From Prorocentrum cordatum (lineage: Eukaryota), in the NCBI GenBank assembly GCA_963575745.1, contig CAUYUJ010000200.1, positions 62,001-116,926 of the forward strand: 54,926 nt of DNA, written 5' to 3'. The notes beneath the pieces are model-generated. The model ran no database searches. It worked only from the letters and a program-made list of their open reading frames with translations, and was not told where the DNA came from. Below are positions 7,429-54,926 of this stretch, piece by piece. How positions within the stretch are numbered: position 1 is the first letter of the stretch; every line of letters starts with the position of its first letter. A program made the position numbers and the translations under genes.

Positions 7429-7475
<47 letters not shown>

Positions 7476-15967: not shown

Positions 15968-16130
15968 CATGGCCAAGAAACACCCTGCTTGCCTCCAGGG
16001 TGCCCTGGGTTTCCTGGATTTCGGCCGTTTTGCTGCGGAAAATGTGGCCTTCCCGAACCAGAAATCGATGGACGTCGCGGGGTCTCAGGGTTGGGTTTCT
16101 TGTGGAAGGCTTCTTGTGGACTGGCCTCCA
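15968..16130 (+). repeat. Dispersed repeat E, copy 2
   Basis: Same TGCTTGCCTCCAGGGTGCCCTGGGTTT core. Confidence 0.8.
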
Positions 16131-19673: not shown

Positions 19674-19820
19674 CCATGCCAAGAAGAAACGCCTTGCTTG
19701 CTTCCAGGGTGCCCCGGGTTTCTTGGGTTTCGATGGCTTCGCTGCGGAAGGAGTGACGTTCCCACACCAAAAATCCATGGACGTCCTGGTGTCTCAGGGT
19801 TGTTTTTTTTGGTGGAAGAT
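19674..19820 (+). repeat. Dispersed repeat E, copy 3
   Basis: TGCTTGCTTCCAGGGTGCCCCGGGTTTC core. Confidence 0.8.
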
Positions 19821-19992
19821 GTCTTATGGTCGGGCCCCCATTGTACTGTGTCTTTTTGTAGGCTGCGAGGGCAGTATTGGGCGGGGACAGCTTCGGCAGA
19901 CCCGCGCGACACGCCCCAGGAGCGCACGGGAGTTGCTGGGACCCACAGCCCCCAGGGCCATCTACTACGTGCTGGAGGCACGGTGGCGGTCA

Positions 19993-33278: not shown

Positions 33279-33328
33279 CGAACGTCAGCGCGATCGGTTC
33301 CTTGCGCTGGAAAAGGGTACGGTGGGGG

Positions 33329-33440
33329 CCCATGTCAAGAAACACCCTGCTTGCCTCCAGGGTGCCCTGGGTTTCTTCGGCTTTGCCGTGGAAGGCCCGA
33401 CCTTCCCACACCCAGAATGGATGGACGTCCTGGGGTATTC
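33329..33440 (+). repeat. Dispersed repeat E, copy 4 (cut off by a TA microsatellite)
   Basis: CAAGAAACACCCTGCTTGCCTCCAGGGTGCCCTGGGTTTC. Confidence 0.8.
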
Positions 33441-35850: not shown

Positions 35851-36432
35851 TATGATAACACATAATATGAAATGATACGATTTGATATGTTCATGGTGGT
35901 GGTGATGTTGATGAGTTCATCGTCAGCATCGGGGGATCGGGAAGCGGGGTGGTATGTATTGAAAATTGCTGCACGCAGCCAGCTTGAGCCCCGCCGTTTC
36001 CTTGATATATTTGGCGCCCCCCAGCACCGACAGGAAACCCGGCTCCGCGAGCTGATTTGCCGATCCGCATGGGCGAAGAAGAGACAACCACAACCGTTGG
36101 GATGCGGGGCGGTTCCTTCATCCCAGCAGTTGTGGTTGTTTCTTCGTCGCTCCTGAAATCCACCAATTTCTATCCCCCCAGATGTCGCGCCGTGTTGGAA
36201 CCCCTGGGCTCCTACGGACCTCGTGAGGGGTGCTCTAGAGACCGTGGGGGCCTCCCTGGAAATCCTTGGGGCACTGTGACACCTTTGGCAACACCCGATG
36301 TTCGTCCGACCCGACCCTCCTCCCTCCTCTCGGGGGAACGTAAGAAGGTTTGAGTTTGTTGGAATTCGGGTTTACCACCGCCATTGGCAGCGAGAGCTCG
36401 CGCCAAACTTCAGACGAGGTCTCATCATTTTT

Positions 36433-38612
36433 CCCCACATGCTTAGTGGGGTTCTGGTGTTCTTCCCTGCCGTGTCGCACCCGCGGCCCACCTCACCCAC
36501 CTCATCCCACCCCACCCTTCTCACACAGCAGAGCACAGCACAGCTCAGCTCAGCACAGCTCAGCACACAGCACAGCACAGCTCAGCACAGCACACAGCTC
36601 AGCACAGCACACAGCTCAGCACAGCACACAGCTCAGCACAGCACAGCACACCACAACACAAGCGCACACACACACACACACACAACGCACACAACGCGGC
36701 GTCTATGCGGGCCATGGCGCCAGCCGTGGCATTTCCTCGACACCATAGGGGGTGCGCAGGGGATGGTCCCTGAGCGCGGCCGCTATCCGTGCCAGTCGTC
36801 CAGGCATAGCAGGCGTGGCACTTTCTCGACACCATAGGGGGTGCGCAGGGGGTGGTCCCTGAGCGCGGCCGCTATCCGTGCCAGTCGTCCAGGCATAGCA
36901 GGCGTGGCACTTTCTCGACACCATAGGGGGTGCGCAGGGGGTGGTCCCTGAGCGCGGCCGCTATCCGTGCCAGTCGTCCAGGCATAGCAGGCGTGGCACT
37001 TTCTCGACACCATAGGGGGTGCGCAGGGGGTGGTCCCTGAGCGCGGCCCCTATCCGTGCCAGTCGTCCAGGCATAGCAGGCGTGGCACTTTCTCGACACC
37101 ATAGGGGGTGCGCAGGGGGTGGTCCCTGAGCGCGGCCGCTATCCGTGCCAGTCGTCCAGGCATAGCAGGCGTGGCACTTTCTCGACACCATAGGGGGTGC
37201 GCAGGGGGTGGTCCCTGAGCGCGGCCGCTATCCGTGCCAGTCGTCCAGGCATAGCAGGCGTGGCACTTTCTCGACACCATAGGGGGTGCGCAGGGGGTGG
37301 TCCCTGAGCGCGGCCGCTATCCGTGCCAGTCGTCCAGGCATAGCAGGCGTGGCACTTTCTCGACACCATAGGGGGTGCGCAGGGGGTGGTCCCTGAGCGC
37401 GGCCGCTATCCGTGCCAGTCGGCAGGAGCGCTGTGTCGTTTACACCATAGGGGGTGCGCAGGGGGTGGTCCCTGAGCGCGGCCGCTATCCGTGCCAGTCG
37501 TCCAGGCATAGCAGGCGTGGCACTTTCTCGACACCATAGGGGGTGCGCAGGGGGTGGTCCCTGAGCGCGGCCGCTATCCGTGCCAGTCGTCCAGGCATAG
37601 CAGGCGTGGCACTTTCTAGACACCACAGGGGGTGCGCAGGGGGTGGTCCCTGAGCGCGGCCGCTATCCGTGCCAGTCGTCCAGGCATAGCAGGTGTGGCA
37701 CTTTCTCGACACCATAGGGGGTGCGCAGGAGGAGGAGGAGGAAAGAGGAGGATGAGCAGAAGGAGGAGAAGGAGGAGGAGGAGGAGGAGTGAGGAGGGAG
37801 TGGGAGGAGGAGGAGGAGGATGAGGAGGAAGAGGAGGAGGAGGAGGAGGAGGAGGAGGAGGAGGTGAGAGGCGGAGGGAGGAGGAGGAGGAGGAGAGAGG
37901 AGGAGGAGGAGGAGGAGGAGGAGGAGGAGGAGGAGGAGGAGGAGGCGGAGCAGCAGGTGGAGGAGGAGGAGGAATAGGAGGAGGAGTGAGGAGGAGGGAG
38001 ATGAGGAGAAGAGTGCTTCTCTGTGTGGAGGGCGGGGTGAGACACGGGTAGTTTTTTTTTGCCATTTTGGTTTCCAGGGCAGCTCCTCGTCGCGTGGCTG
38101 GACGCAGCGTGAAACACCAGTGGGTCTGGATCCCGGGAGGGGTCCATGGACTGATTTTGAGCCGATTTGGCCACCATCGTCTTACGGTAGGTTCGTGCTG
38201 CGTTGGCGCGGCGGCGACCCCGCCGCTGGCGTTCAAGGTTGATTTCCACCGTGGTCCTGGATGCTACTTTGCCTTGCCCCCCCCGGGTATAGATCCTCCT
38301 CTCCGTGATTTTCCCCTCCTGTCCCCCTCCCTGCTTTTCCCCCTCCTTCCCGCCTCCATGTTGTTCCCCCTCCGTATCCCGAGGATTGGCCGCGCGGTTG
38401 CCGCGTCTTCTCTCTCTCTCTCTCTTTCTCCTTCCCTTCTTCGTTTCTCCCAACTCCTTTCTTGTGGCCCTCCTTCTCTCCCCCTCCCCCTAGCATGGAT
38501 GCGGTTGTCAGCTAGTGCGAGGGAGCGCGGGGGACGTCGAAACACGACGTGACATGGCATGCGAATACGAATGGCATAAAATAAGTATGTGGGGTTCCTC
38601 GGTAGCGTAATT
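36433..38612 (+). mobile_element. Family-B Helentron/HINE-like element carrying an 89-bp satellite
   Basis: T-run, then head CCCCACAT-gctta-GTGGGG (36433-36451); (CAGCA)n/(CA)n; 89-bp array; (GGA)n; tail ATGTGGGG (38587-38594) + 13 nt + TAATT; flanks rejoin into a paralog of 35191-35268. Confidence 0.7.
36736..37727. repeat. 89-bp tandem array, 11 units plus a partial, near-identical
   Basis: Unit CTCGACACCATAGGGGGTGCGCAGGGGGTGGTCCCTGAGCGCGGCCGCTATCCGTGCCAGTCGTCCAGGCATAGCAGGCGTGGCACTTT; the 8th unit is shorter with a substituted 3' part. Confidence 0.95.
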
Positions 38613-38734
38613 GTTGACGGTCCCGCCAGCCAAGTCCGAGTCCCCCAATCTAGAGTATAGTTTGTCATCTTACGCCTCCACGACCCTCGTCCCTCCGTTT
38701 AGCATGCCTTCCCTTCAAATATACAGTGAAGACC

Positions 38735-38885
38735 CATGACAAGAAACACTCTGCTTGCCTCCAGGGTGCCCTAGGTTTCTTGGGTTTCGATGGCTTTGCT
38801 ATGGGAAGCGTGACGTTCCCACACCAAACATCGGTGGATGCCCTGGGGTCTCAGCGTTGGATTTCTTGTGGACGGGTCTCCACTG
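38735..38885 (+). repeat. Dispersed repeat E, copy 5
   Basis: CAAGAAACACTCTGCTTGCCTCCAGGGTGCCCTAGGTTTC. Confidence 0.8.
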
Positions 38886-39294
38886 TATCTTACGTCATCT
38901 TACGTTTCCACGACCCTCGTCTTTCCATTTAGCATGCCCTCCCCTCTAAGATCAGTTTTTTGGGCCCATCCAGCAGTTCGCTCGGACGAGGGAAACCCAG
39001 CCGCGGCGACGCCAGCCCCTCCCCCCCCCCCCGAGACGTCTAACAAGGTAACAAGAACAACCCGAACATCTCGGCCCTCAGAGTTCGAAGCTCGACCCTC
39101 GAAGTTTGATCCTCCTCCTCCTCCTCCCTCCTTCCTCCTCCTCCTCTTCGCCTCCCTCCTCATCCTCGTCCTTCTTCTCCCTCCTCCTCCTCCTGCTCCT
39201 CTTTCTCCTCTCTTTCCTCCTCTTCTTCTTCTTCCTCCTCCTCCTCTTTCTCCTCCTCCTGTTCCTTTTCCTTCTCCTCTTCCTTCTCCTCGTT

Positions 39295-39316
39295 TCCGTC
39301 GCCATGTTGGCTCAAC
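39295..39316 (+). other. Dinoflagellate spliced-leader (DinoSL) relic at the 5' end of LINE-B
   Basis: TCCGTCGCCATGTTGGCTCAAC versus TCCGTAGCCATTTTGGCTCAAG, 19/22 ungapped, directly after a (CCT)n tract. Confidence 0.75.
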
Positions 39317-42300
39317 ATGTCCGCTGGCCCGTGGCAGAGCACGGATACCGCTAGTCCGCGGCAGGCAAGGCTGTTCAGCTTGGTGTTTTTTTGTCGGCCG
39401 CTACTGTGGGAATGGGCCCCCCGCATTATCCCGATCCCCGTCCGTTTCGCGTCATTGTGTCTGCGGTGGGACGTCCACGGGAAATGGTGGTAAGGTCATC
39501 AAGCTGAGCGCGACAGGAGAGACAGTTTCACGTTCACGTCCTCGTTCGAATGGTGTGTTTCGTGCTGGCTCTTGACGCTGCTGCCGCCTCGGGAGGCCTT
39601 GACTATCACGACGTGTCCGATTCGGATGACGACATGTCTCTCGAGCACAGCCGTACCATCTGCTCCTCCTTGCTCGAAGGCGAGCTCGCTGCGTTGCAGA
39701 AGCAGTTCGGCTCGGTGGTGGCTGCGATAGTCGTCCAAGGTCAAATATGAGGTGGCCTCGATCACGGCTGCTTTCATTCAGAACTTCCAATGCTTACCTC
39801 AAGAAGTGCCAGTCTGACTTCGCGTCTACTGGCACCAAGCTCGACGAGCACATCACCGCTGCGGCGGCTCCAACGGTGGATTGGGTTCCAACGTGAACTG
39901 GTCGCCCGCTTCGACGAGATCGATGTTCAGCGTCGTGAGAGCGCAGACCGCATGGGTGCCCAAGATGCACTATTTCGTCAGATGGTCGATCAGGTCAAGG
40001 CTCTGTGAGATGCTTTGGTCGTCGCCAACACTGAAGCCGCGAAGTCGACCCAGATCTCCAACTTTCAGTTCGACAGGGTCACAGATCAGGACGATCATCC
40101 GTGTCAGTGCTGGTCAGTTGGTTTCAGAAGCAGCAGCGTTGGTGGTAGTCTGAATTGCAATCAGAGCTCAACCTGGGCAGTGACAAGTGCGAGCCCACGT
40201 CCGCCGACCCTCTCACCAAGCAGTTTGTTCATATGTTCGCGGGCGCAGCTGGTCTGGCTGCGCGGCGCGCGGGCAAAGCCCTATCCAGTCTTCGTGGCCA
40301 CGACGGACTGCGGCGTCAGCTCAGCGCGGCAGCGCGCGCTGGTGGCGGCGAAGTTGGTTTGCGCCTCTCCGCCGACGAGAACCCTCGTCAAGTCAAGTTC
40401 GAGACCCTCGGCCACCGGGCAAGTTCGCCCTGCGCGAGAACTTGCAGGGGCACGCGGTCTTCTTTGACCGCGATCGTGGCCCGGTCTCTGCGGGGCGGGG
40501 TGCCCCGCGCAAGATCGAGCCGAGGCGCGGCCGTGACAAGGCAGATCTCTTGTGGAACCAGGAGACGATCAGTAAGCTCAGCCTGTCCACGGATGGCCTC
40601 ATCGCCCATCGCGCTCGATTGTCGAGCCCGACGCTGAGCCGGAATGGTGTCTTTGACCGACTCGTTCGACTCCTTCCGAGGTCGCCGTTGCAGAGACTCC
40701 GTGGTATATGGCGGGGGAGGTGGAAATGCATGCGCGGCCACTTCTGCCTTCAACGCGCCGGAATTTCTTTCCTTTTCCGCGGGTGGGCCGGGGCAGGTCG
40801 GCCCGTGTAATCGGCGGCGCTGCGAACGCGAGGTCCGCCGCCTCTTGCGCCGGCCGTCGCTGGACATGGTCGCGCGATGCTGCGAAGCCCTGCTGGCTGA
40901 TGAGGTGCGAGTTGCTGCAAAAAAGAGACTCTGTGGTATATGTCTGGTTGTGGGCGTCAATATCACTGCGTGGAATGCGCGGGTGACCCCTGAGTATTGG
41001 CGGGCCCGCGCATCTGAGGAGCTCGGGCACCTGCAGGGGCTTCGCCCTGGATCCGCGCGTTCTTCCAGGGGCTCAGATTTTTGGGATTCTGCGGGGGTGA
41101 TTGCGAGGGGCGCGTCCGTGGGGATGTCGCCGCAGTCGTTCCTGGAATCCCGGGGGGCCCCCCTCCCCCTCCTTCCCGCCCGGAGCGTTCCCCGCTTGTT
41201 CTCATCCAATCCCAGGGCGCGTCTTGCGCTTTTGAGTTTGCTGGCGGGAGTGCCGTGCTGATTCGTTGGGGCATCTGCTATCGCGATTTAACTGCTAGCC
41301 CCAAGTTCGGGACGCGTGCAAATTAATCACCAGGGATTGGGCCGAATCAGAAGCCAATCCTGAGGGCCGTTTAACTGCAGTTTCTTTGCCAGCGAGGAAA
41401 GATCGAGCTTTGCGCGGCCATCGCAGGCCCGAAGAAACGCCCGCCCCTTGCGCGCGCTGGCGCCGCGATGGACAGACGCCCTTGACAGTTTCATTGAAAT
41501 CTCTCCGGCTGCCGCCGCTCACTTTGCCCAGTGCGCGGGCGCAGTAGCAGCCGTCGATCGTTTTGTTAGTTGCTCGCGGCCTGCTTGGACGATCGCCTGG
41601 ATTTATTCGCGCGCCAGCGTCGCCGGCAATCCTGGGGAGCGCGCGCGCCCGATCCATGGGCGCGTTGCGAAATCATTGGTTTACAAGAATGTGTTTGGGT
41701 AGCGCGCGGCAGCTGAAGAGTCTCGCCTCGCGAAGACGCGCCCCCCCCCCCCCCCGCGCGCAGGGGCGCTGCAGGATATTGATACCAGAAGCAAGTCGCG
41801 TTGCCCGTGCCCCCTGACCTTCAGGCGCCCGAGAGATCCGCGTGCTCTCTCGCTCCTGGCGCGTGTCCTGGCTCGGGCCGCGCGGCGCCGAGACTGCTCG
41901 CGCGCTGAACTTTTGCCGGACTCGCTCGAGATGGCCCCCGATGTTATTGAGATGCGCGGCAGCCGAGCGCGCTTGCTCCGCCCGGCCTCGTGCCAGCGCT
42001 GGCCCGACGAAGTGCAATTGCGAGCTGCTGATCTCGATCGTGATTCGGTCCAAGTTCGCCTCGAACAGGTTCAGTGCACTGGGTCGCGTGCGCGGCGTCG
42101 TCGGCAACTTCGTGCCATTGATCGACCGCGCTCGCTTATGGGCCCCGTTCGTGCGTCAGTTGATATTCGGTGGATGGGGCGAGGACTGAGGGCGCTGCCG
42201 GTCGCGCTTCTGGTCTGGCGCCCCAGGGGGAGTCGGGTTTTGCTCGCCACCCGTGGCCTGCCCAGACTGCCGTTGCCAGCGTCTGCCGCGACGTCGAACC

Positions 42301-43307
42301 CGCCATTTACACTTCCGAGTGCTGCCCTCCCACGTCGTTCGCTGCCATGCGCAGGGTTGCACTTCCAGTGAGTGATTTAGCTCCTGGGCGTGGTCGACTG
42401 TGCTACGCTGCTTGCCTGGCGCGCCCGTCTGGCCCAGTTCTGTTGCGCGACGCCCTCCTGCGGATGCCAGCGGGCAGCGGGCTCTTCCCGTCAGGGAATG
42501 ACGCCCTTCCTGCGCGCTTCCGCTGAAGAGCGGGCTGGTCTCCAACTCGGCCGATGGCGAGCGCGAGCGGGGGCCGACTTTGGCGGGGGTCCTGGGGGCC
42601 CAAAATGCACGCTTCGAGCTTTTGACCGCTGCCTTTTTTATCATTCTATCCGTCGCCCTCTGGATCGGCCCGCCCCCGGGGGTCAGCGCGGCTTCGTGCG
42701 AGGCCGAAGCCGTTGCCAACGTGCACTGGAAGCTAATGATGTATCCAGCTTTCTCTCAGCCCGCCGCGTCGCTGGCAATGATCGCCCGCTGCTGTGCGCC
42801 TCCGATTCCGGGCGCGCCTTCCCTGGCGCGCCCCAGGGGTGTGTAATGTTAGTGCTCTAGAAGATGATCTGCCCGACAGCGCTCGTTGGTTCTGTCAGCG
42901 CGCTGCATGACGTCGTCCAAGGGGCGATTTCTGTCCGCGGGGTATACGTTGCATGCGCATTGGGCCCGTTCTGGAATTATCCATGGGGGCGCGTTGTCGG
43001 GCCCCCGTTTTGCCGCCGACCTGTCTCCTGGCCCCCGTGGATCTCCGCTACTGTTTCGAGTGCAAGATGCTCGGCATCATCCGCGCCTGCGCAGACGACC
43101 TCGGGCGGGCCTCGAGGGCGATGGGAAGGGGGTCTCACGCGGTTCTACCGGGTAACGCAAAAAGCGGAGAAGATAGCTCGTCTAGAGTTAAAACCGGCGA
43201 AATGCGTAATGTTGTTGGGTGCGCATGCCCTATCCTGGAGCTCTTTCCAAATCGAAGACGAGCTTTTCCATTCTGGAATGCAGGTTGGTCTTGGAGAATC
43301 TGGGGGA

Positions 43308-44672
43308 GATTATGGGGGCAACTGATTCTTATTTATGATTTGACACATCCCACGCTCTTGCAAACATCCCACCCACCCACCCGCAACTAGGTTTGCAAAA
43401 CCTTTTAAGACCGACTACGACCACACCGACGACAGTGACTACGACGACACCGGCGATTCCGACGACTTCGACGACGACGACGACAACGACGACGACGAAG
43501 AAGGAAGACGGACGACGACGACGACGCCGACGCCGACGACGACGAAGACGACCACGACGTCGCCAACGAAGACGACGACGAGGGAGGAGGGAGGACGACG
43601 ACGGCGACAACGACGACAACGACGACAACGACGAGGGAGGAGGGAGGACGGCGGCGACGCGAACGACGAAGAAGGAGGAAGGACGGCGACGCCGACGACG
43701 ACAACGACGAGGGAGGAGGGAAGACGACGACGAAGACAACGACGACGACGACGACGAGGACGGCGACAAAATAGAAGGGACGACGGCGAGACGCCGACGA
43801 CGGACGACGACGACGACGAGTGAGGAGGAGGAAAGACGACCACGGCGACAACGACGACGGAAACGACCACGACGCCAAAGAGGACGACGACGACGAACAC
43901 GAGGAAAGACAGAGGACGACGTAGGCGACGACGACGACGACGCGGGAGGAAGGAGGACGGCGACGACGACGACGACGACGCAAGAGCGCGCGCGCACGCT
44001 TTTGTTGAAAATCCGTGTTGTGAAAGCTTGTGTTTTTGTTTGTTTTTGAACACGATTTTGAAATCCTTCCGAAACCGATGGGTTTGAAAGGATTTCGGCA
44101 TACGCGCGCGACGACGCGCGCGTCTGCACTTCGTCCCTTTTTTTGCACAGGATTCTCGCGACGGCACACGCGCAAGGGCGTGCGACAGATTTCGACATGC
44201 GCGCGCGGAACCCGTTTGGTAGCATGTTGTGAAGTTCTTGAAACACCTATGGTTTTCGTAAGTTTTCGCAAAAGCTCGCGCGTAAGTTTTTTTAGCATAC
44301 CAGTGTTGCGAGCCCATGTGTTTTTGTATGTGTTTTTTTTTGAAACTCGATCGCGAAATTCCTCCGACACCTAAGGTTTTTGAAGGATTTCGGCATGCGC
44401 GCGCGACGACGCGCGCGTGCGCACTTCGTCCCATTTTTCGCAAGGGAGTCGTGACAAAACAATTGTTATGTTAGAACAAAAATGTCCCCGCGTTCCCTTA
44501 CAAAAAAAATCAAGGGAGCCTAAGGGGGGGCCGATCCCGGCCACATTGGGATAGTGCAACTTCATATTTAGGATGGACATGTGGTCATAATCATATATGA
44601 TTTACAAAACCCGAAAGGGGAGGGATAACGGCGGGGGGGGGTAGAATCTATTCTGTTTTTAGAAAGGAGAAT
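43308..44672 (-). mobile_element. Family-C element (complete copy) inserted into the LINE-B RT region
   Basis: LINE coding motifs stop before it and resume after it; right-end hairpin ATTCT...GAAAGGAGAAT (44650-44672); left end GATTA-N12-ATTCTT; internal (GAC)n and two GCGCGCG core units. Confidence 0.65.
43410..43985. repeat. Degenerate (GAC)n microsatellite
   Basis: Read directly from the sequence. Confidence 0.9.
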
Positions 44673-46854
44673 CGATTCCCGGATATCGCTCGCGATGTGC
44701 CACCGCGGTTGAAGGGCCGACGCCTGCCCCTTCCTCCGCCGTGCCGCGCAGTTCGCGGTGCGTGTCAGTCCTGAGTTATGTGATGTAGTTTTTACCTACG
44801 CTACCTTCGCCGAGTTGAGCACAGGTGTCCCTCGCAGGTGTCCCGACTCCCCCTGGACAACTCAGCTGCAGCTGATTTGGCTTCGTCTCCAGGAATTCCA
44901 TGGGCCAGAGGCGTTTCCTATGGAGAATATCAGCGCAGCGACGATGGCAATATTCACGATTCGCATTCTTCCAAGGCGTGCCCGATTCTTCCGCCGGTTG
45001 TGCTGTCGGAGCGATAGCCTGGAGTGTTTGGGCGAGCTGCGCTTGGCGATGCTCCCTGCAGGTCAGCGCTCGCCGGGGCAGTGGAGATCTCAATCGGGCG
45101 CCGAGCACCTGGCTGGCGCCCGCCGCGGAACCCGTTCTGAACTCACCTCTGAGGCCGCCAGAGTTTGCAGGCTCCCGAGGTTCCCGCTCGAAGGCTTCGA
45201 GCCGCAGAGGGCCGCGAAGATTGCTTGTGCCGAGTGCTGGAGCTCTCGACCCCTTGCCGCCCTTCGCGGGAGGCGCCTGTGCAAGCTTTTCCCGTTTCGG
45301 GCCTCTGCGCTCGCTCGCTTGTTTGTGCGTGAGGTACCCCTCCTCGGCCTGGCCCTGGCTTCGTGCAGTGTCGGGTGGCCGGTTGGCCATCCAAGGAACG
45401 TTGTATTGGCGTGGTAAACTGAATTGCCTGCTCGGCTGCGCGCGTGAGCCTGATTCTTTTAGACATTATTTATGTTGCCCCATGTTAGCCTGGTCCGTCT
45501 CTTTCGGTCACCGTTCGGGGCCCGTCTGCCTTGGCCCCCTTGATCGTCTTGGAATCCCTGGTTATTGCACCGTCCCCATAGTGGAACATATTTATGTTGC
45601 ATGTCACACCTACCACCAGCTCCGCCCCCTGCCTCCCGAGATCCTTCCTCCAGCTCCCCTCCACCGCCCATGATGCTGCGCGATCAGCCGCTGGCGATAT
45701 TCGGCCACCCGCACAGGCTGGCCGCGCTGCTGGGTAGCGCGGGGCGTCGTCGTCGTCGTCGTCGCACGTTTGCCTCCTCCTCCTCCTCCTCCTCCTCCTC
45801 CTCCTCGTCTTCCTTCTCCTCCTCCTCCTCCTTTTCCTCCTCCCCTTCCTCTTCCCCCTTCTCCTCCGCCTCCTCCTCGTCCTTCCCCCCCGTCTTTCCC
45901 ATCCTGCTCCTCCCTTTCCTCCTCCCTTTTCTCCTCCCCCCCTTACTCCTCCATTCCTCACTCCTCGTCCCCTCGCTCCTCCGCCTCCTCCTCCTCCCCT
46001 CAGTTGTTCGGCTCCTCCCCCGTATCCGCGGCCCGGGCACCAGGCCCGTTTTGCGTTTGGTGCCCACCAGGGCGAGGCGCGCGGGCGGGAGGTCCAAAAC
46101 CTCATCGCCACGGGCGTGTCCATCGAGGGTGTTTGCGAATGCCCGGAAGGGGGGCGACAGCCCGCCCGGGTGCTGGCGACGCGCCGTGCACCATATCGGA
46201 CGCCTTGTTTCGCGCCTCCGTGTCGGCGCCGAGCGAAAGCCGCCCCTCCCCGCGCCGAGGTCACCTGGCTCGTGTCCCTGGGGCTCGTGGTGGTGTTGCA
46301 GTGGGCGGGCCCCGCTCGCGGCGCGGTTTGGGCCTCCTGCCTCCTGGCGTTTCTTCGCCTCTCGGTCGCATCCGTTTCACTCCTTTTGTTGGAATCCACA
46401 GCGGCAGGAACGAGACATCATACACGCAGCGCAATACCGAGTTTTATGTTCCTTGCTACTTTGTGTGGTTATCATTCATCGTCTTTCTCTTATTATTATT
46501 GTTTATGCTTCATATTGTCAGTTTTATTCTCTATGTACCAGTAGTAATACCAATAAGTATACTAGTCATAGTAATAACGGTACTCATACGGATCATAATG
46601 CCAATAATAATATGAATACTAACATTACTATTAATAATGAAAGTCACAATAATAACACGAATAAGAATAATGGTATGACTAATTGCTATTACTGGTCGTA
46701 TGATTATGTTTCTTCGTAGCTGTTTGTTTTCTGTCCCATTTTTTCCCCCTCAGAGTTTGCCCTTGTAGGGGTCCCAGCGAATTCATATGGTCAGGTGAGG
46801 TTTGGCGCCGACTTCGGTGGCACGCCCAGGTGCCCGGGTGCCCCGGGTGCCCAG

Positions 46855-47045
46855 TAGCCCTATAACCTTATAGCCCTATAGCCTTAAAACCTATAGCCCG
46901 ATAACCTGTAGCCCTAGAGCCTCATAGCTTCATAGCCTTATCGCCCTACAGTCCGATAGCCCAATAGCTCTATAGCTCTATAGCACTATAGCTCTTCATG
47001 CCTATAGCCCTGCATCCCTACAGCCCCATAGCCTTATAGTCCTAA
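46855..47045. repeat. Degenerate 8-bp repeat (CCTATAGC)n
   Basis: TATAGCCC/TATAGCTC units. Confidence 0.8.
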
Positions 47046-47069
47046 TATATTATAATTTTGGTGTTTTTT

Positions 47070-47176
47070 CCCAACCATCCTGTGGTGTTGGGTCCTCGTT
47101 TTGAAGAGACGGTGCCCCGCGTTCCCTCCTCCTCCTCCCGCTGCCCCCTCCCTCCTGCCATCATCATCATCACCAA

Positions 47177-47272
<96 letters not shown>

Positions 47273-48701
47273 TATCACCATCATTCCTCTCCTCTCCTCT
47301 CCTCTCCTGTTCTCCTCTCCTCTTCACCCGCCCAGTACACTGTTTCGTGGCTCCATAGGGAGCTCCACCGAAGGCCCCAGTGCCCGCGCCCGCATGCGTC
47401 ACCCACACCCATTTCGGCACACCCCTCACACGTTTCGTGGCTCCATAGGGAGCTCCACCGAAGGCCCCAGTGCCCGCGCCCGCATGCGTCACCCACACCC
47501 ATTTCGGCACACCCCTCACACGTTTCGTGGCTCCATAGGGAGCTCCACCGAAGGCCCCAGTGCCCGCGCCCGCATGCGTCACCCACACCCATTTCGGCAC
47601 ACCCCTCACACGTTTCGTGGCTGCATAGGGAGCTCCACCGAAGGCCCCAGTGCCCGCGCCCGCATGCGTCACCCACACCCATTTCGGCACACCCCTCACA
47701 CGTTTCGTGGCTCCATAGGGAGCTCCACCGAAGGCCCCAGTGCCCGCGCCCACATGCGTCACCCACACCCACACCCATTTCGGCACACCCCTCACACGTT
47801 TCGTGGCCCCATAGGGAGCTCCACCGAAGGCCCCAGTGCCCGCGCCCGCATGCGTCACCCACACCCATTTCGGCACACCCCTCACACGTTTCGTGGCCCC
47901 ATAGGGAGCTCCACCGAAGGCCCCAGTGGCGGCGCTCACATGCGCATGCGTCCCGCACACCCATTTCGGCACATCCCTGACAGGTTTCGTGGCCCCATCA
48001 TCCACCGGAGGCCCCAGTGGCGGCGCTCACATGCGTCACCCACACCCACCCAATTCGGCACACCCCTCACACGTTTCGTGGCCCCATAGGGAGCTCCACC
48101 GAAGGCCCCAGCGGCCGCGCTCACATGCGTCCCCGCCACCCATCCCGGCACGCCCCTCACAACAACAGGTTTCGTGGCCCCATAGGGAGCTCCACCGAAG
48201 GCCCCAGTGCTGCCGCCCGCATGCGTCACCACCCGCACCCAATTCGGCACACCCCTCACACGTTTCGTGGCCCCATAGAGAGCTGCACCGAAGGCCCCAG
48301 TGGCGGCGCTCACATGCGTCCCCGCCACACATCCCAGTGCACCCCTCACGCGCTTCGTGGCCCCATAGGGAGCTCCACCGAAGGCCCCAGTAGCGGCGCT
48401 TACATGCGTCTCCGCCACCCATCCCGCCCCCCCCCCCGCAGCAGCATCATGTTTCGGGGACCCATAGGGAGCTCCACTGGAGGCCCCAGTGGCGGCCCGC
48501 ACATGCGTTTCCGCCACCCATGTCGGCACGCCCCGCGCGTGTTTCATGTCCCCATAGGGAGCTTCGCCGAATGCCCCAGTGGCACCCATCTCGGCACACC
48601 CCTCACACGTTCCGTAATCCTATGGGGAGTTCCATTGAAGATGAAACCCGCAGCTGCGGTACTGACAACTGCATATGGTTGGGTTCTTCGCCAGGCTAAT
48701 T
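47070..48701 (+). mobile_element. Family-A Helentron/HINE-like element, copy 1, with (ATC)n and a 90-bp array
   Basis: Head CCCAACCATCCTGTGGTGTTGGG; tail ATGGTTGGG (48675-48683) + 13 nt + TAATT; array from 47341 with period 90, diverging toward the 3' end. Confidence 0.75.
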
Positions 48702-48829
48702 GTTGTCCGCAATATTTTTGTTGTTTTCATGTGTTGTTCGTATTGTGATCCAATGATCAGTAGTCATCTGAGGAGCATTATTCGTATTCATATCATCATC
48801 GTGACCCGCACCATTAACAACAGCAGCAA

Positions 48830-48884
48830 TACATACCACTACTACTACTACTACTACTACTGCCAGTATTGCTACTACTACCAG

Positions 48885-48919
<35 letters not shown>

Positions 48920-48976
48920 TTACTATTACTATTACTATTACTACTACTATGACTACTACGACTACTTCTACCACTA

Positions 48977-49012
<36 letters not shown>

Positions 49013-49465
49013 TTACTGGTACCACGGCTGCTATTACTACAACTACTACTACTACTACTACTACTGCTACTACTATTATTCCTACCACCACCACTGCTAT
49101 TACTTTTTTGCTAAAACAACTACTACTACAACAACTACTACCACTACGACAACGACGACGACTACTACTACTACTACTACTCCTACTACTACTACTACCA
49201 TTATTACTACTACGACTACGACTACGACTACTACTACTACTACTACTACGACTAAGACAACTATTACTATTTCTACTAGTACTACTTCTACGACCACCAC
49301 TGCTACGATGACTGCTACAACTACGACTACTACTACTACTACTACTACTACTACGACTACTATCATTTTTCCTTCTTCTTCTACTACTACTATTGCCACC
49401 ACCACTACTATTGCGACGACTACGAACACCATTATATCTAGCATTACTACTACTACTACTACTAT

Positions 49466-49496
<31 letters not shown>

Positions 49497-49497
49497 G

Positions 49498-49540
<43 letters not shown>

Positions 49541-49769
49541 CACTACTACTGCGACTACTACTACTACTGTTATTACTGCGACTATTATTATTTTTTGAAC
49601 ACCAAGTACTACTATCATTAATATTATTACATTTGCTGCCACCAGTACTACTATTACTACTACTACTACTACCACTACGACGACGACGACGACTACTACT
49701 ACTACTACTACTACTGCTAGTACTACTACTAGTACTACTACCACTACAACGGCTACTACAACTGCTGTG

Positions 49770-49800
<31 letters not shown>

Positions 49801-50014
49801 ACTTACTACCATTACTATTGCTACAAGTATTATTACTATCACCGTTACTACGACTGCTAGTAGTCGTATCTTTCTCAGTATTAAGTTTACTGCTACGACT
49901 ACGGCTACACCTACTACTACTATTATTGAAATTGCTACTGTCACTACTACTACTACTACTACTACTACTACGAATACTAATACTAGTACCACTACTACTA
50001 CTACTACTACTACG

Positions 50015-50048
<34 letters not shown>

Positions 50049-50241
50049 GTGCTAGTGCTACTACTACTAGTACTACCAGGGCTACTGTTAGCAGTCCTTC
50101 TACGACGGCCAGTACAACTACTACGACTACTGCTACTACTATGTTTCGTATTTCAAGTAGTGTCACTACCACCACTATGAATACTACTACGACTAGTTTT
50201 ATTTTTTTCGTTGCTTGATATTGCGTCTACTACTACTACCA

Positions 50242-50274
<33 letters not shown>

Positions 50275-50704
50275 TTACTACTACTACCACTACTACTACT
50301 ACTACCACTACTACGGCTACTACTACCACGACTACTACCACTACTACTGCTACTACTACTACTACTACTGCTATTACTACCACTACCACCTATACTACTA
50401 CTACTACTAATAATAATAATACTACTACGACCACTTCTACTATTACTGCTACTACGACTGCTACTTTTACTACTACTACTACTATTACTATTACTACCAC
50501 TGCTATTGCTACTGGTACGACTACCAGTGCCACTACCACTACCACTACTACTACCTAGTATTACCAGTACTACTACTACTACGACTACTACTACTACTAC
50601 TACTATTACTACTACTACCATTACTATTACTAGAATCGTTACTACTTTTACGTTTGCTATTTCGACTACTACGAGTTAGACTAAACATACTTTTACTACG
50701 AGTG

Positions 50705-50752
<48 letters not shown>

Positions 50753-51015
50753 ATACTAATACTAATACTACTATTAATACTACTACTACTATTACTATTA
50801 CTGCTACTACGACGGCTACTACTACCACTACTACCACTATTTTTCTTTATTTTTCTTACTACGATCACTAGTTCTGTTATTACTAAATCTGTTACTACTG
50901 ACCTACCTACTTACGTACGTACGTACGTGCGAACGTACGTACTTACCGAATTGGTTAAGTATTGCCTTGCGTACTCACTACTACTATTACTGCTACTGCT
51001 ATTGCTACTACTACT

Positions 51016-51055
<40 letters not shown>

Positions 51056-51056
51056 T

Positions 51057-51104
<48 letters not shown>

Positions 51105-51213
51105 AAGCACCACTGCTACGACTTCTACTATCATTGCTACTACTACTTCTACTACTCTTATTTCTACTACTACTACTACTACTACGACTACTACTACTAC
51201 TATTACTACTACG

Positions 51214-51247
<34 letters not shown>

Positions 51248-51271
51248 TTACTATTACTACTACTCCTACCA

Positions 51272-51325
<54 letters not shown>

Positions 51326-51542
51326 ATACGACTATTATTACTACGACTACTAATATTATGTTTCTATTTATTGCTACTACTACGACTACCAGAAATACAA
51401 CTACTACTACGACTACTACTATTATCACTACCACTATTACTACTACTACTACTACTACTACTATTACTACGACTACTACTTGTAGTAGTAGTAGTAGTAC
51501 TACTACTACTACTACTACTACTACTGCTAGCACTACTACTCG

Positions 51543-51581
<39 letters not shown>

Positions 51582-51629
51582 ATCTACTACTACTACTACG
51601 ACGACGACTACTACTACTACTACTACTAT

Positions 51630-51681
<52 letters not shown>
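48830..51681. repeat. ~2.85-kb degenerate (TAC)n microsatellite
   Basis: Read directly from the sequence; produces poly-T/Y/L/V ORFs. Confidence 0.95.
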
Positions 51682-51682
<1 letters not shown>

Positions 51683-51710
51683 GGGTCACGCCTGACCTAT
51701 GGCCAGTGAG

Positions 51711-51774
51711 GTTTGGGCTTGGGTTTGGGTTTGGGTTTGGGTTTGGGTTTGGGTTTGGGTTTGGGTTTGGGTTT
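51711..51774 (+). repeat. (TTTGGG)n telomere-like hexamer, about 10 copies
   Basis: Read directly from the sequence. Confidence 0.9.
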
Positions 51775-51808
51775 CTTTGTTTTCTATTGGAACTCAATTG
51801 TTGTAGTT

Positions 51809-53765
51809 CCCAACCATCCTGTGGTGTTGGGTCTTCGTTTTGAAGAGACGGTGCCCCGCGTTCCTCTCCTTCCTCCTCTCCTCCCTCCTCCCCCTCCTTG
51901 CCTCTGCTCTCGGCACACCTCTCACGCGTTTCGTAGCCCCATGGGAGGTCCACCGAAGGCCCCAGTGGGGGTGTTCGCATGCGGTTCCCCCACCCAGGGC
52001 AGCGTTTCGTGGCCCCATAGGGAGCTCCACCGAAGGCCCCAGTGGGGGTGTTCGCATGCGGTTCCCCCACCCAGGGCAGCGTTTCGTGGCCCCATAGGGA
52101 GCTCCACCGAAGGCCCCAGTGGGGGTGTTCGCATGCGGTTCCCCCACCCAGGGCAGCGTTTCGTGGCCCCATAGGGAGCTCCACCGAAGGCCCCAGTGGG
52201 GGTGCCCGCATGCGGTTCCCCCACCCAGGGCAGCGTTTCGTAGCCCCATAGGGAGCTCCACCGAAGGCCCCAGTGGGGGTGTTCGCATGCGGTTCCCCCA
52301 CCCAGGGCAGCGTTTCGTGGCCCCATAGGGAGCTCCACCGAAGGCCCCAGTGGGGGTGTTCGCCCCCATGCGGCCCCATAGGGAGCTCCACCCCCCAGTG
52401 GGGGTGTTCGCCACCCAGGGCAGCGTTTCGTAGCCCCATAGGGAGCTCCACCGAAGGCCCCAGTGGGGGTGTTCGCATGCGGTTCCCCCACCCAGGGCAG
52501 CGTTTCGTGGCCCCATAGGGAGCTCCACCGAAGGCCCCAGTGGGGGTGTTCGCATGCGGTTCCCCCACCCAGGGCAGCGTTTCGTGGCCCCATAGGGAGC
52601 TCCACCGAAGGCCCCAGTGGGGGTGTTCGCATGCGGTTCCCCCACCCAGGGCAGCGTTTCGTGGCCCCATAGGGAGCTCCACCGAAGGCCCCAGTGGGGG
52701 TGTTCGCATGCGGTTCCCCCACCCAGGGCAGCGTTTCTTTGCGTTTTTCGTGGCCCCAGCTAGGGAGCTCCACCGAAGGCCCCAGTGGGGGTGTTCGCAT
52801 GCGGTTCCCCCACCCAGGGCAGCGTTTCGTGGCCCCATAGGGAGCTCCACCGAAGGCCCCAGTGGGGGGGTTCGCATGCGGTTCCCCCACCCAGGGCAGC
52901 GTTTCGTAGCCCCATAGGGAGCTCCACCGAAGGCCCCAGTGGGGGTGTTCGCATGCGGTTCCCCCCCCCAGGGCAGCGTTTCGTGGCCCCATAGGGAGCT
53001 CCACCGAAGGCCCCAGTGGGGGTGTTCGCATGCGGTTCCCCCACCCAGGGCAGCGTTTCGTAGCCCCATAGGGAGCTCCACCGAAGGCCCCAGTGGGGGT
53101 GTTCGCATGCGGTTCCCCCACCCAGGGCAGCGTTTCGTGGCCCCATAGGGAGCTCCACCGAAGGCCCCAGTGGGGGTGTTCGCATGCGGTTCCCCCACCC
53201 AGGGCAGCGTTTCGTGGCCCCATAGGGAGCTCCACCGAAGGCCCCAGTGGGGGTGTTCGCATGCGGTTTCCCCACCCAGGGCAGCGTTTCGTAGCCCCAT
53301 AGGGAGCTCCACCGAAGGCCCCAGTGGGGGTGTTCGCATGCGGTTCCCCCACCCAGGGCAGCGTTTCGTGGCCCCATAGGGAGCTCCACCGGAGGCCCCA
53401 GTGGCTGCTCTCGCATGCGGTTCCCCCACCCAGGGCAGCGCTTCGTGGCCCCATGGGGAGCTCCACCGAAAGCCCCCGTGGCGCAGTTCGCATGCGCTTC
53501 CCCCACCCAGGGCAGCGTTTCGTGGCACCATAGGGAGCTCCACCGAAGGCCCCAGTGGCGCAGTTCGCATGCGGTTCCCCCACCCAGGGCAGCGTTTCGT
53601 AGCCCCATAGGGAGCTCCACCGAAGCCCGCCCCGGTGGCGCAGTCCGCATGCGGTTCCCCCATCCAAGGCAGCGCTTCGTGGCCCCATATGGAGCCCCAC
53701 CGAAAGCGGCACCCACAACGCGTTACCAACAATTGCTTATGGTTGGGTCTTTCGCCAGGATAATT
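51809..53765 (+). mobile_element. Family-A element, copy 2, with a 77-bp array (~23 units)
   Basis: Same ~55-bp head; tail ATGGTTGGG (53739-53747) + 13 nt + TAATT; sits within an AT-rich ~30-bp repeat. Confidence 0.78.
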
Positions 53766-53965
53766 AGTTTTTTATTGAAAATCCATGGTTTGACTTTGTT
53801 TTCTATTGAACACCTATGGTTTTCATTAGTTTTCTATTTGGAACCAATGGTTTTAATGAGTTTTGTATTGGAAACCAATGGTTTTTGCTGGTAACCAATG
53901 ATTGTATTCGATTTCTAATGGAAATCAATGGTTCTAATTCTTTTTCGATTGGAAAAACGTTTGTT

Positions 53966-54926
53966 CCCAACCATCCTGTGGTGTTGGGTCCTCGTTTTGA
54001 AGAGACGGTGCCCCGCGTCTCCTCTCCTTCCTTCCTTCCCCCTCCTCCCCCTCCCCCTCCGCGTCAGCCACACCCACTTCGGCACACCCCTCACACGCTT
54101 CGTGGCCCCATAGGGAGCTCCACCGAGGGCTCCAGTGGCTGCGTTCGCATGGCGGCACCGCGCCCATTTCGGCACACCCCTCACACGTTTCGTGGCCCCA
54201 TAGGGAGGTCCACCGAGGGCCCCACTGGCTGCGTTCGCATGGCGGCACCGCACCCATTTCGGCACACCCCTCACACGCTTCGTGGCCCCATGGGGAGCTC
54301 CACGGAAGGCCCCAGTGGCTGCGTTCGCATGGCGGCACCGCACACATTTCGGCACACCCCTCACACGTTTCGTTGCCCCTGAGGGAGCTCCACCGAAGGC
54401 GCCAGTGGCTGCGTTCGCATGGCGGCACCGCGCCCATTTCGGCACACCTCTCATACGCTTCGTGGTCCCATAGGGAGCTCCACCGAAGGCCCCAGTGGCT
54501 GCGTTCGCATGGCGGCACCGCACCCATTTCGGCATACCCCTCACACGCTTCGTGGCCCCATAGGGAGCTCCACCGAGGGCCCCAGTGGCTGCGTTCGCAT
54601 GGCGGCACCGCACCCATTTCGGCACATCCCTCACACGTTTCGTGGGCCCATAGGAAGCTCTACCGAAGGCCCCAGTGGCTGCGTTCGCATGGCGGCACCG
54701 CACCCATTTCGGCACACCCTTCACACGCTTCGTGGCCTCATAGGGAGCTCCACGGAAGGCCCCAGTGGCTGCGTTCGCATGGCGGCACCGCACACATTTC
54801 GGCACACCCCTCACACGTTTCTTGGCCCCATAGGAAGCTCTACCGAAGGCCCCAGTGGCTGCGTTCGCATGGCGGCACCGCGCCCATGTCGGCACACCCC
54901 TCACACGTTTCGTGGCCCTTGAAGGA
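53966..54926 (+). mobile_element. Family-A element, copy 3, with a different 90-bp array (runs off the window)
   Basis: Same head; units at 54096, 54186 ... 54906. Confidence 0.75.

What the first reader, a model, noticed from the sequence alone, without database searches (positions are those of the whole stretch)
36433..54926. Several unrelated element families share one Helentron/HINE-like end design and each carries its own satellite
Seen: Family A (47070, 51809, 53966) starts TT|CCCAACCAT within a hairpin (CCCAAC...GTTGGG) and, in both complete copies, ends ATGGTTGGG-N13-TAATT. Family B starts TT|CCCCACAT within a hairpin (CCCCAC...GTGGGG) and ends ATGTGGGG-N13-TAATT. Families C (43308-44672, minus strand) and D (9902-10705) show looser versions. 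Between the ends lie microsatellites and tandem repeats. The terminal sequence differs between A and B, but head/tail complementarity and the 13-nt offset are kept. Known: asymmetric sub-terminal inverted repeats, terminal hairpins, TT targets without TSD and internal tandem repeats characterise Helentron/Helitron2 and their non-autonomous HINE/DINE-1 derivatives. Inference: a rolling-circle element system that builds and spreads satellites, explaining much of the apparently structureless DNA here. I do not know of a description in dinoflagellates.
Basis: partly seen in the sequence, partly recalled or inferred. Interest (0 to 1): 0.82.

Follow-up and report, generated by a model that had tools for sequence, protein, structure and literature searches.

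The report
Helitron-like satellite carriers in a dinoflagellate
Two related families of non-coding repeats in this dinoflagellate DNA are built like the satellite-carrying, rolling-circle "HINE/DINE-1" transposon derivatives known from insects and oysters, but neither their movement nor their enzyme could be shown here.

Summary
Partly confirmed. Family A has 3 heads and 2 tails. Family B has 1 head and 1 tail. Both show the described design: a T-run, then a 9-13 nt inverted repeat that also forms a local 5' hairpin, then microsatellite, then a 77-90 bp satellite, then the inverted-repeat partner, then 13 nt and TAATT. The full design gives 4 head/tail pairs in the window and none in 100 shuffles.

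A and B are not unrelated. Their tails are 26/32 identical, and the three motif copies change in step between the families. Families C and D do not hold up.

The layout meets four HINE/DINE-1 (Helentron, "HLE2") criteria in full and a fifth only in part. No 3' stem-loop follows the right repeat. No RepHel gene was found (0 of 142 ORFs). No empty site could be tested, because no genome is held. Two of three independent metagenome heads lack a tail. The window copies share upstream flanks, so local duplication is a live rival.

The host is a dinoflagellate (spliced-leader relics). A Helitron2-like RepHel is already published for Symbiodinium microadriaticum; HINE-like carriers are not. Best reading: an HLE2-like non-autonomous variant, confidence 0.55, interest 0.5.

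The parts
36431..38612 (+). Family B element, complete single copy: TT, head, microsatellites, 89-bp satellite, (AGG)n, about 580 nt unique, tail
36433..36445 (+). B left subterminal inverted repeat (13 nt). Its first 6 nt pair with 36446-36451 to form the 5' hairpin.
   Evidence: (z -2.3)
36721..37729 (+). B 89-bp satellite, 11.4 units. Low depth in the public runs (about 36 against 2-3.5 for unique DNA in X1), so it is nearly private to this locus.
38534..38550 (+). B hairpin (6-bp stem, 5-nt loop) upstream of the right repeat
   Evidence: (z -3.15 for 38530-38616)
38582..38612 (+). B tail: right inverted repeat 38582-38594 (12/13 complementary to the head), 13 nt, then TAATT at 38608-38612
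47068..48701 (+). Family A copy 1, complete. TT; inverted repeat 47070-47078; hairpin partner 47087-47092; CT-rich tract; (CAT)n 47159-47284; 90-bp satellite 47337-48581; palindrome 48648-48659; right inverted repeat 48675-48683; 13 nt; TAATT 48697-48701.
51807..53765 (+). Family A copy 2, complete. Inverted repeat 51809-51817; hairpin partner 51826-51831; 77-bp satellite 51926-53704; right inverted repeat 53739-53747; TAATT 53761-53765.
53766..53965 (+). T-rich spacer of about six 31-bp units between the A2 tail and the A3 head. A related unit precedes the A2 head, and the spacer resembles the 5' flank of the L002 head.
   Evidence: z 8.0 and z 5.0
53964..54926 (+). Family A copy 3, cut by the window end. 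Inverted repeat 53966-53974; hairpin partner 53983-53988; 90-bp satellite 54071-54918.

Best explanation
A and B are two related families of non-autonomous DNA elements built like HINE/DINE-1, the non-coding derivatives of Helentron/Helitron2 ('HLE2') rolling-circle transposons.

Inferred mechanism, none of it shown here. A RepHel transposase supplied in trans recognises the left end: the T-run plus the 9-13 nt repeat, which can fold back on its nested partner. It nicks there and peels off one strand 5' to 3'. It stops at the right end, which is the inverted copy of the same repeat followed by about 18-22 conserved nt ending in TAATT(GTTG). The strand is then re-inserted in T-rich DNA without a target duplication.

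If the two ends are joined in a circle or a tandem copy, the two repeats pair into a 9-13 bp stem with the joint in the loop. That is a Rep-origin-like shape.

The internal 77-90 bp arrays ride along. They grow and homogenise within each copy by unequal exchange or slippage. In this way the element seeds satellites at new places.

The ends differ from canonical HLE2 in having no stem-loop after the right repeat, so I read this as a variant, not a proven member.
For: SHOWN
1. Sharp, shared boundaries. In six family-A heads (3 in the window; L001, L002 and L003 from metagenome contigs; L004 dropped as the same locus as L001) similarity starts at the T-run before CCCAAC. A1 and A2 similarity ends at TAATT.
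2. The complete design gives 4 pairs against 0 in 100 shuffles.
3. Co-variation. A has CCCAACCAT / GTTGGG / ATGGTTGGG, and B has CCCCACAT.. / GTGGGG / ..ATGTGGGG. One substitution and one 1-nt indel are mirrored in all three motif copies, while the rest of the tail stays homologous at 26/32.
4. Cognate tail+head joins fold into 9-13 bp junction-spanning stems (dG -10 to -11.5). Non-cognate A/B joins do not. This follows from the complementarity and is not independent proof.
5. Seven of 7 heads are preceded by at least TT. Three of 3 complete copies have no direct repeat longer than TT at their flanks.
6. Point-by-point match to the published HINE layout. This covers a 5' subTIR 2-4 nt from the terminus, a nested IR, a microsatellite, central repeats, a subterminal 3' subTIR, and TT/T-rich targets without TSD (PMC4067079 passages and Table S2; PMC7492417 passages).
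7. The head and satellite keep one orientation in 5 of 5 family-A copies that carry arrays.
8. HLE2 enzymes exist in the group. A Helitron2-like RepHel is reported in Symbiodinium microadriaticum (PMC8788227).
9. The family-A satellite is extremely abundant. Summed word depth is about 245,000-273,000 in bins 47365-48354, against depth 2-3.5 for exact unique contigs of the same run X1. This is order of magnitude only; the tool warns that it is no copy number.
Against: - No stem-loop follows the right repeat. Folds of the 3 tails with 30-40 nt of flank score z +0.2, -0.15 and -0.18. Canonical HLE2 ends have one there (PMC11417382).
- The right repeat lies 18-22 nt from the last shared base, not the 38-60 nt described for mite HINEs.
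- The family-A repeat is 9 nt, shorter than the published 11-15 nt.
- No Helitron_like_N/PIF1 hit in 0 of 142 ORF translations (6, 131 of the 192 ORFs, 5).
- No empty site exists for any complete copy.
- Heads without tails. L002 has none within 4.3 kb and L001 none within 1.7 kb. L003 is cut by the contig end. So 0 of 3 independent metagenome loci show a tail.
- The three window copies sit in one orientation within 8 kb and share upstream flank modules. A1/A2 share a 20-nt module (z 3.8), and A2/A3 share the spacer unit (z 8.0). L001 and L002 share their 5' flank. Independent insertions are therefore few.
- B is a single copy.
Confidence: 0.55

Rival explanations
1. The 'elements' are not mobile. 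They are units of a complex, locally duplicated satellite region: AT-rich tract, upstream module, simple repeat, head, array, tail, spacer. The conserved array borders are spread by tandem or segmental duplication and recombination, and each array is later homogenised on its own.
For: - A1, A2 and A3 lie in one orientation within 8 kb.
- A1 and A2 share an upstream 20-nt module (z 3.8, 2 of 300 shuffles), and each follows a TAC/AT-rich tract.
- A2 and A3 share the upstream spacer unit (z 8.0).
- The 9-mer AATTGTTGT occurs only at the A1 3' junction and 5 nt upstream of the A2 head.
- L001 and L002 share about 40 nt of 5' flank.
- Heads occur without tails in L001 and L002.
Against: - The L003 head has an unrelated 5' flank (z about 0 against the window flanks).
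- Family B lies 8.5 kb away in unrelated flanks, yet keeps the same end design with co-varying repeats.
- The boundary is sharp to the nucleotide in six family-A heads.
- Plain duplication does not explain why a head repeat, its hairpin partner and a distant tail repeat change together.
Confidence: 0.2
2. They are mobile but belong to another transposon class. One option is a different HUH-type element (Replitron-like, or an undescribed dinoflagellate group). Another is a cut-and-paste element that duplicates TT.
For: - The 3' stem-loop of HLE2 is missing.
- A direct repeat GTTGGGTYCTYCG (in B: GTGGGGTTC..) lies near both ends. Direct repeats at or near the ends are the hallmark of Replitrons (PMC10288648 passages).
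- If the element ends at TAA, TT on both sides could be read as a 2-bp TSD.
- No RepHel was found.
Against: - Replitron repeats are terminal and direct. Here the terminal letters differ (TTCCCAAC... against ...TAATT), and the prominent signal is inverted.
- The word 'dinoflagellate' occurs 0 times in that paper.
- The ends are asymmetric: 18-22 nt follow the right repeat but 0-2 precede the left one. That does not fit TIR transposons.
- The microsatellite plus central-repeat layout is the HINE signature.
Confidence: 0.2

Closest known systems
HINE / DINE-1 and oyster Cg_HINE: non-autonomous Helentrons that carry tandem repeats (PMC4067079, PMC7492417)
   Same: The module order is the same. It runs: T-run; left subterminal repeat at the terminus; short IR nested in that repeat (the 5' hairpin); microsatellite; variable segment; tandem-repeat array; short right flank with the inverted repeat. 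T-rich flanks and no TSD of 3 bp or more. Families differ by matched changes in subTIR and IR.
   Different: - No palindrome or stem-loop after the right repeat.
- The right flank is only 18-22 nt beyond the repeat, against 38-60.
- The family-A repeat is 9 nt, against 11-15.
- Palindromes lie upstream of the right repeat instead.
- The host is a dinoflagellate.
- No partner Helentron is known.
HLE2 (Helitron2/Helentron) and 'HLE2-reverse'/proto-Helentron ends as summarised in the HELIANO paper (PMC11417382)
   Same: Short inverted repeats at the ends and T-T insertion sites. In the 'reverse' variants the stem-loop sits at the 5' end, as it does here.
   Different: In HLE2-reverse the 5' stem-loop lies upstream of the left repeat. 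Here the left repeat is itself one arm of the stem. Membership rests on RepHel phylogeny, which I could not test.
Helitron2-like RepHel element of Symbiodinium microadriaticum (PMC8788227)
   Same: It shows that HLE2-type rolling-circle transposases exist in dinoflagellates, so a partner enzyme is plausible.
   Different: That report concerns a protein-coding element. I saw no terminal sequences for it and could not compare ends. It mentions no satellite-carrying derivatives.
Replitrons (PMC10288648)
   Same: HUH-type copy-and-paste elements of algae and protists, with short repeats near the ends and a hairpin at one end.
   Different: Their repeats are direct and terminal. Here the defining repeats are inverted and asymmetric.

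Membership tests
HINE/DINE-1 (non-autonomous Helentron/HLE2) | Left subterminal inverted repeat of 11-15 nt within a few nt of the 5' terminus, matched by an inverted copy near the 3' end | tested here: met
   B: 13 nt, 12/13 matching, starting right after TT. A: 9 nt perfect in 3 heads and 2 tails, which is shorter than the published range.
HINE/DINE-1 (non-autonomous Helentron/HLE2) | Short IR complementary to, and nested in, the 5' subTIR (DINE-1, Cg_HINE) | tested here: met
   CCCAAC(11 nt)GTTGGG in A and CCCCAC(7 nt)GTGGGG in B. Fold z is -1.2 for A and -2.3 for B.
HINE/DINE-1 (non-autonomous Helentron/HLE2) | Microsatellite after the left module, then a central tandem-repeat array | tested here: met
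   TRF finds (CAT)n and CT-rich tracts, then 90- or 77-bp arrays in A. In B it finds (CACAG)n and (CA)n, then an 89-bp array. The same holds in L002 and L003.
HINE/DINE-1 (non-autonomous Helentron/HLE2) | Palindrome or stem-loop downstream of the 3' subTIR, with the 3' subTIR about 38-60 nt from the terminus | tested here: not met
   Only 18-22 conserved nt follow the right repeat. Folds of the 3 tails with flank are no better than shuffles, at z +0.19, -0.15 and -0.18.
HINE/DINE-1 (non-autonomous Helentron/HLE2) | Insertion between T and T (T-rich target) without target-site duplication, confirmed by empty sites | tested here: inconclusive
   Seven of 7 heads follow at least TT, and all tails end in TAATT. 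There is no flank repeat longer than TT in 3 of 3 complete copies. Only a one-sided comparison exists: three copies of another repeat in L001/L002 lack the head that two copies carry after a T-run. No complete empty site was found and no genome is held.
HINE/DINE-1 (non-autonomous Helentron/HLE2) | Autonomous partner with the same ends that encodes a Rep (HUH, Y2) + PIF1-like helicase | not testable with these tools
   No genome is held. Zero of 142 ORFs of the window and L001/L002 hit Helitron_like_N or PIF1. The scans of genome contigs and viral contigs were empty.
Replitron | Short direct repeats at (or within a few nt of) both termini | tested here: not met
   The termini are TTCCCAAC... 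and ...TAATT(GTTG). The shared direct motif lies 17 nt inside the 5' end and 21 nt inside the 3' end.
TIR (cut-and-paste) transposon / MITE | Symmetric terminal inverted repeats at both termini and a fixed-length TSD | tested here: not met
   The ends are asymmetric, with conserved nt beyond the right repeat in A1, A2 and B. There is no TSD of 3 bp or more in 3 of 3 copies. A 2-bp TT duplication cannot be excluded.

The most novel reading that the evidence does not exclude
A dinoflagellate-specific lineage of rolling-circle (HUH) elements has ends that carry no 3' terminator hairpin. Instead, the ends pair with each other across the circle or tandem junction into an origin-like stem-loop. This lineage would be the main generator and spreader of the genome's major satellites: the family-A monomer reaches about 10^5-fold the depth of unique DNA. 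If so, much 'structureless' dinoflagellate DNA would be the debris of one transposon system, and the family-specific, co-varying stems would give a readable recognition code.
Probability: 0.2. Interest if true: 0.75.

Novelty: new variant of a known kind. Interest (0 to 1): 0.5.

Why it matters
Dinoflagellate genomes are huge, repeat-rich and poorly annotated, and most of their repeats are unclassified. If these carriers are rolling-circle derivatives, a known mechanism (HINE-borne satellite seeding, shown in Drosophila and oysters) would explain the origin and spread of at least one very abundant dinoflagellate satellite. It would also give annotators a simple end signature to search for. And it would link to the single Helitron2-like transposase reported in the group. 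The co-varying head, hairpin and tail motif also offers a natural experiment on how HLE2 ends are recognised.

Tried and rejected
- Own-genome search: no genome is held.
- Earlier scan notes: nothing for this genome, this sequence or these words. 65 'dinoflagellate' notes exist; the 8 shown concern plastid minicircles and are irrelevant.
- Public runs: only small shares, 0.19 at most.
- Laying four runs: contigs of about 90-260 nt, too short to bridge an element, so there was no filled/empty test. The joints listed lie inside arrays and microsatellites. Parts without cover are not evidence.
- Metagenome scan with the family-A head: only 4 contigs, 3 distinct loci.
- The satellite core in genome contigs and viral contigs: 0 hits.
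- Rfam on the whole window: 0 families.
- Protein atlas on the PITH-carboxypeptidase gene: no taxon-specific lead.
- Satellite A against satellite B: not significantly alike (z 0.46 forward, -0.37 reverse), despite a shared CCATAGGG.
- Heads of A against B: local alignment at chance level (z 0.65), although the multiple alignment shows a shared CCCGCG block.
- Tail-like site at 8706 (2 mismatches): no convincing head. The candidates at 6378 and 8606 are not preceded by TT.
- The repeat in L001/L002 that holds the family-A head: it shares CCAGGCAATTAA and a spacer-like piece with the tails, but shows no head/tail inverted repeat (by eye).
- A stem-loop plus T-run just beyond TAATT, suggested by A1 and by the L001/L002 flanks: not supported by folding.
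Full report
WHAT IS THERE

I read 36000-54926. Family A is real. The 9-mer CCCAACCAT occurs three times on the + strand (47070, 51809, 53966) and twice as its complement (48675, 53739). Chance expects 0.57, and 0 of 100 shuffles reach 5. Both complements sit in ATGGTTGGG-N13-TAATT. The three heads agree in 53-55 of their first 56 nt.

Family B is one head (36433) and one tail (38587). Its short motifs alone are at chance level. But the B inverted repeat extends to 13 nt with 12/13 matching, 36433-36445 against 38582-38594.

I then scored the whole design as one object: TT, an 8-mer with a local 6-nt hairpin partner, and the reverse-complement 8-mer followed by exactly 13 nt and TAATT within 8 kb. 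It occurs 4 times, once for B and three times for A combinations. Block shuffles give 0 in 100; without the hairpin term their mean is 0.23.

Tandem Repeats Finder confirms what lies between the ends:
- A1: a CT-rich tract, (CAT)n, then a 90-bp array of 13.5 units.
- A2: a 77-bp array.
- A3: a 90-bp array, cut by the window end.
- B: (CACAG)n and (CA)n, an 89-bp array of 11.4 units, (AGG)n, then about 580 nt of unique sequence.

BOUNDARIES

A scan of the metagenome collection with the 23-nt family-A head gave four contigs. L001 and L004 are the same locus, so there are three independent loci.

In an alignment of the six family-A heads plus B, similarity begins at the T-run before CCCAAC. All 7 heads follow at least TT. 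BLAST of the window against itself and the contigs shows A1/A2 similarity ending at TAATT. A1 and B, however, share four more letters, TAATTGTTG. The 3' end is therefore fixed only to about 4 nt.

The flanks of the three complete copies share no direct repeat longer than TT.

A AND B ARE RELATIVES

The A1 and B tails align 26/32, with z 7.2 and 1 of 500 shuffles as good. The heads share a CCCGCG block followed by a C-rich tract.

Between the families, one substitution and one single-base indel in the left repeat are mirrored in the hairpin partner and in the tail repeat. This three-way co-variation is the best internal sign that the repeats are functional. It rests on only two families.

The satellites of A and B are not significantly alike, so 'each carries its own satellite' stands. 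The family-A copies carry variants of one satellite, and L003 holds both the 90-bp and the 77-bp type.

FAMILIES C AND D

Three copies of C (44540-44720, 6330-6510, 9620-9800) stay alignable beyond the claimed C head at 44672, so that position is not a terminus. The claimed complementarity is about 5 nt with a 12-nt offset.

The only other copy of D (L002 4361-4471) ends at 9942, 40 nt inside the claimed head. No TAATT-type tail exists there.

A relaxed search for tails in the window and contigs found only the three known ones. A weak look-alike at 8706 has no matching head.

HOST

A 21-nt dinoflagellate spliced-leader motif, recalled from memory, matches at 39296 with 3 mismatches. With up to 5 mismatches allowed, it is found 5 times in the window plus contigs, against 0.14 per shuffle set. 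Such relics are typical of dinoflagellate retrogenes. The contigs that carry the family-A head are thus from a related or identical dinoflagellate. The window also holds a PITH + M14 carboxypeptidase gene. No whole genome is held.

ABUNDANCE

I laid four coded public runs (at least 90% likeness). Run X1 has exact 150-259-nt contigs on unique parts at depth 2-3.5. The family-A satellite bins (47365-48354) sum to about 245,000-273,000. The pure family-B satellite bin (36970-37464) reaches about 36, roughly what the 11 units of this one array would give.

The tool warns that these sums are not copy numbers. As an order of magnitude, the family-A satellite is very abundant and the family-B satellite is almost private to this locus. 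The contigs were too short to bridge any element.

COMPARISON WITH KNOWN SYSTEMS

- PMC4067079 (passages; Table S2). HINE/DINE-1 elements have 12-15 nt subterminal inverted repeats, 2-4 nt from the 5' end and 38-60 nt from the 3' end. In DINE-1 a short IR has its 5' side nested in the 5' repeat. There is a microsatellite, central tandem repeats, and a 5-10 bp palindrome 8-35 nt from the 3' end. Targets are TT/T-rich, with variable terminal Ts and no target modification.
- PMC7492417 (passages). Oyster Cg_HINEs show the same layout and carry satellite-like arrays.
- PMC11417382 (passages). Canonical HLE2 ends are short inverted repeats plus a stem-loop after the right repeat. A 'reverse' variant has the stem-loop at the 5' end.

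A and B match on module order, the position of the left repeat, the nested IR, the microsatellite, the central array, the subterminal right repeat, the T-rich flanks and the lack of a TSD.

They do not match in three ways:
- No stem-loop follows the right repeat. Folds of three tails with flank give z +0.19, -0.15 and -0.18.
- Only 18-22 nt follow the right repeat.
- The family-A repeat is 9 nt.

Palindromes do lie upstream of the right repeat: 48648-48659, 53717-53724 and a 6-bp-stem hairpin at 38534-38550, with z -3.15 for its segment. Their meaning is open.

ENZYME

None of 142 ORF translations hit Helitron_like_N or PIF1. That total is 6, 131 of the 192 ORFs listed, and 5 from L001/L002. 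The 61 ORFs I left out lie in satellite or microsatellite arrays, or in the carboxypeptidase gene and its antisense frames.

A Helitron2-like RepHel element is reported for Symbiodinium microadriaticum (PMC8788227, passages). Helitrons are listed among Symbiodinium repeats (PMC9087856, one passage). Searches for Helentron + dinoflagellate, Helitron + dinoflagellate + genome + repeat and Helitron + Symbiodinium found no description of satellite-carrying non-autonomous derivatives in dinoflagellates. Subscription papers and supplements were not covered.

EVIDENCE AGAINST SIMPLE TRANSPOSITION

- The three window copies lie in one orientation within 8 kb.
- A1 and A2 share a 20-nt upstream module (z 3.8).
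- A2 and A3 share an upstream 31-bp spacer unit (z 8.0).
- The spacer that follows the A2 tail resembles the 5' flank of the L002 head (z 5.0).
- AATTGTTGT occurs only at the A1 3' junction and 5 nt upstream of the A2 head.
- L001 and L002 share about 40 nt of 5' flank.

This pattern fits head-to-tail tandem formation or insertion next to resident tails, both known for Helitron-type elements. It fits plain local duplication equally well. L003 has an unrelated flank, and B sits in unrelated DNA.

Two of the three metagenome heads have no tail downstream (4.3 kb in L002, 1.7 kb in L001). The third contig ends in the pre-tail region.

One one-sided filled/empty comparison exists. In L001/L002 a different repeat is present three times without the family-A head, and twice with it, inserted after a T-run. 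The two filled copies may descend from a single event, and the 3' junction is not available.

MECHANISM

The mechanism is inferred. The most likely reading is trans-mobilisation by an HLE2-type RepHel, which nicks at the T-run of the left end and terminates at the right end.

Joining cognate tail and head by coordinates and folding them gives a 9-13 bp stem that spans the joint (dG -10 to -11.5). Non-cognate joins do not give one. A circle or tandem junction would therefore look like a Rep origin, with the joint in the loop. This follows from the complementarity and is a hypothesis, not a finding.

Array growth by unequal exchange within each copy would explain why arrays are homogeneous within copies and divergent between them: A1 and A2 are 68% alike over the arrays, while their heads agree in 55 of 56 nt.

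VERDICT

I therefore class this as a new variant of a known kind in a host group where such carriers seem undescribed. Rivals are local duplication of a complex satellite unit (0.2) and another transposon class (0.2).

Noticed in passing
window 39296-39316 (+); L001 and L002, several places: Relics of the dinoflagellate spliced leader: 5 hits with up to 5 mismatches, against 0.14 by chance. Those in L001 and L002 lie just upstream of ORFs. This suggests retroposed genes, and in L001 one relic follows the family-A head after about 160 nt.
   Followed up: partly
window 20090-22549 (+): An uninterrupted 819-aa ORF with a PITH domain (E 5e-35) and an M14 zinc carboxypeptidase domain (E 8e-14). It resembles a cytosolic carboxypeptidase.
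   Followed up: partly
window 8706-8732 (+): A third tail-like site, ACGATTGGG-N13-TAATT, lies between two arrays of the CCAAGAGGCCCC-type satellite. It is preceded by CACAAC, as the family-A pre-tails are. No matching head was found.
   Followed up: partly
window 53766-53965; also 51775-51806; L002 1100-1148: A T-rich 31-bp unit with the near-palindrome AAACCAATGGTTT follows the A2 tail. In one copy or a diverged form it precedes 4 of 6 family-A heads (A2, A3, L001, L002). It may be a 3' extension of some subfamilies or a preferred target.
   Followed up: partly
window 46786-46805 and 51698-51716: A shared 20-nt module, TATGGYCAG(G)TGAGGTTTGG, lies upstream of A1 and A2. In each case it is followed by a different simple repeat, (TAGCCCTA)n or (GGTTTG)n, before the head.
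   Followed up: partly
window 15177-15349, 15958-16130, 19675-19840, 33318-33436, 38722-38875: A dispersed repeat of about 150 bp with five copies at 76-86% identity. It has high depth in the public runs: the bin 38455-38949 reaches about 7,000-8,600.
   Followed up: no
It is often followed by 14-bp ATGTGGTGCAATCG repeats, and it is very abundant in the runs (10^4-10^5 summed depth).
   Followed up: partly
window 48834-51682: A degenerate (TAC)n tract of 2.85 kb lies between A1 and A2. A similar AT-rich tract lies at 46440-46740, upstream of A1.
   Followed up: no
L003 about 500-900: Some family-A satellite units contain CCATTTTGGC, identical to 10 nt of the recalled spliced-leader core. The full 21-mer does not match within 5 mismatches, so this may be chance.
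   Followed up: no
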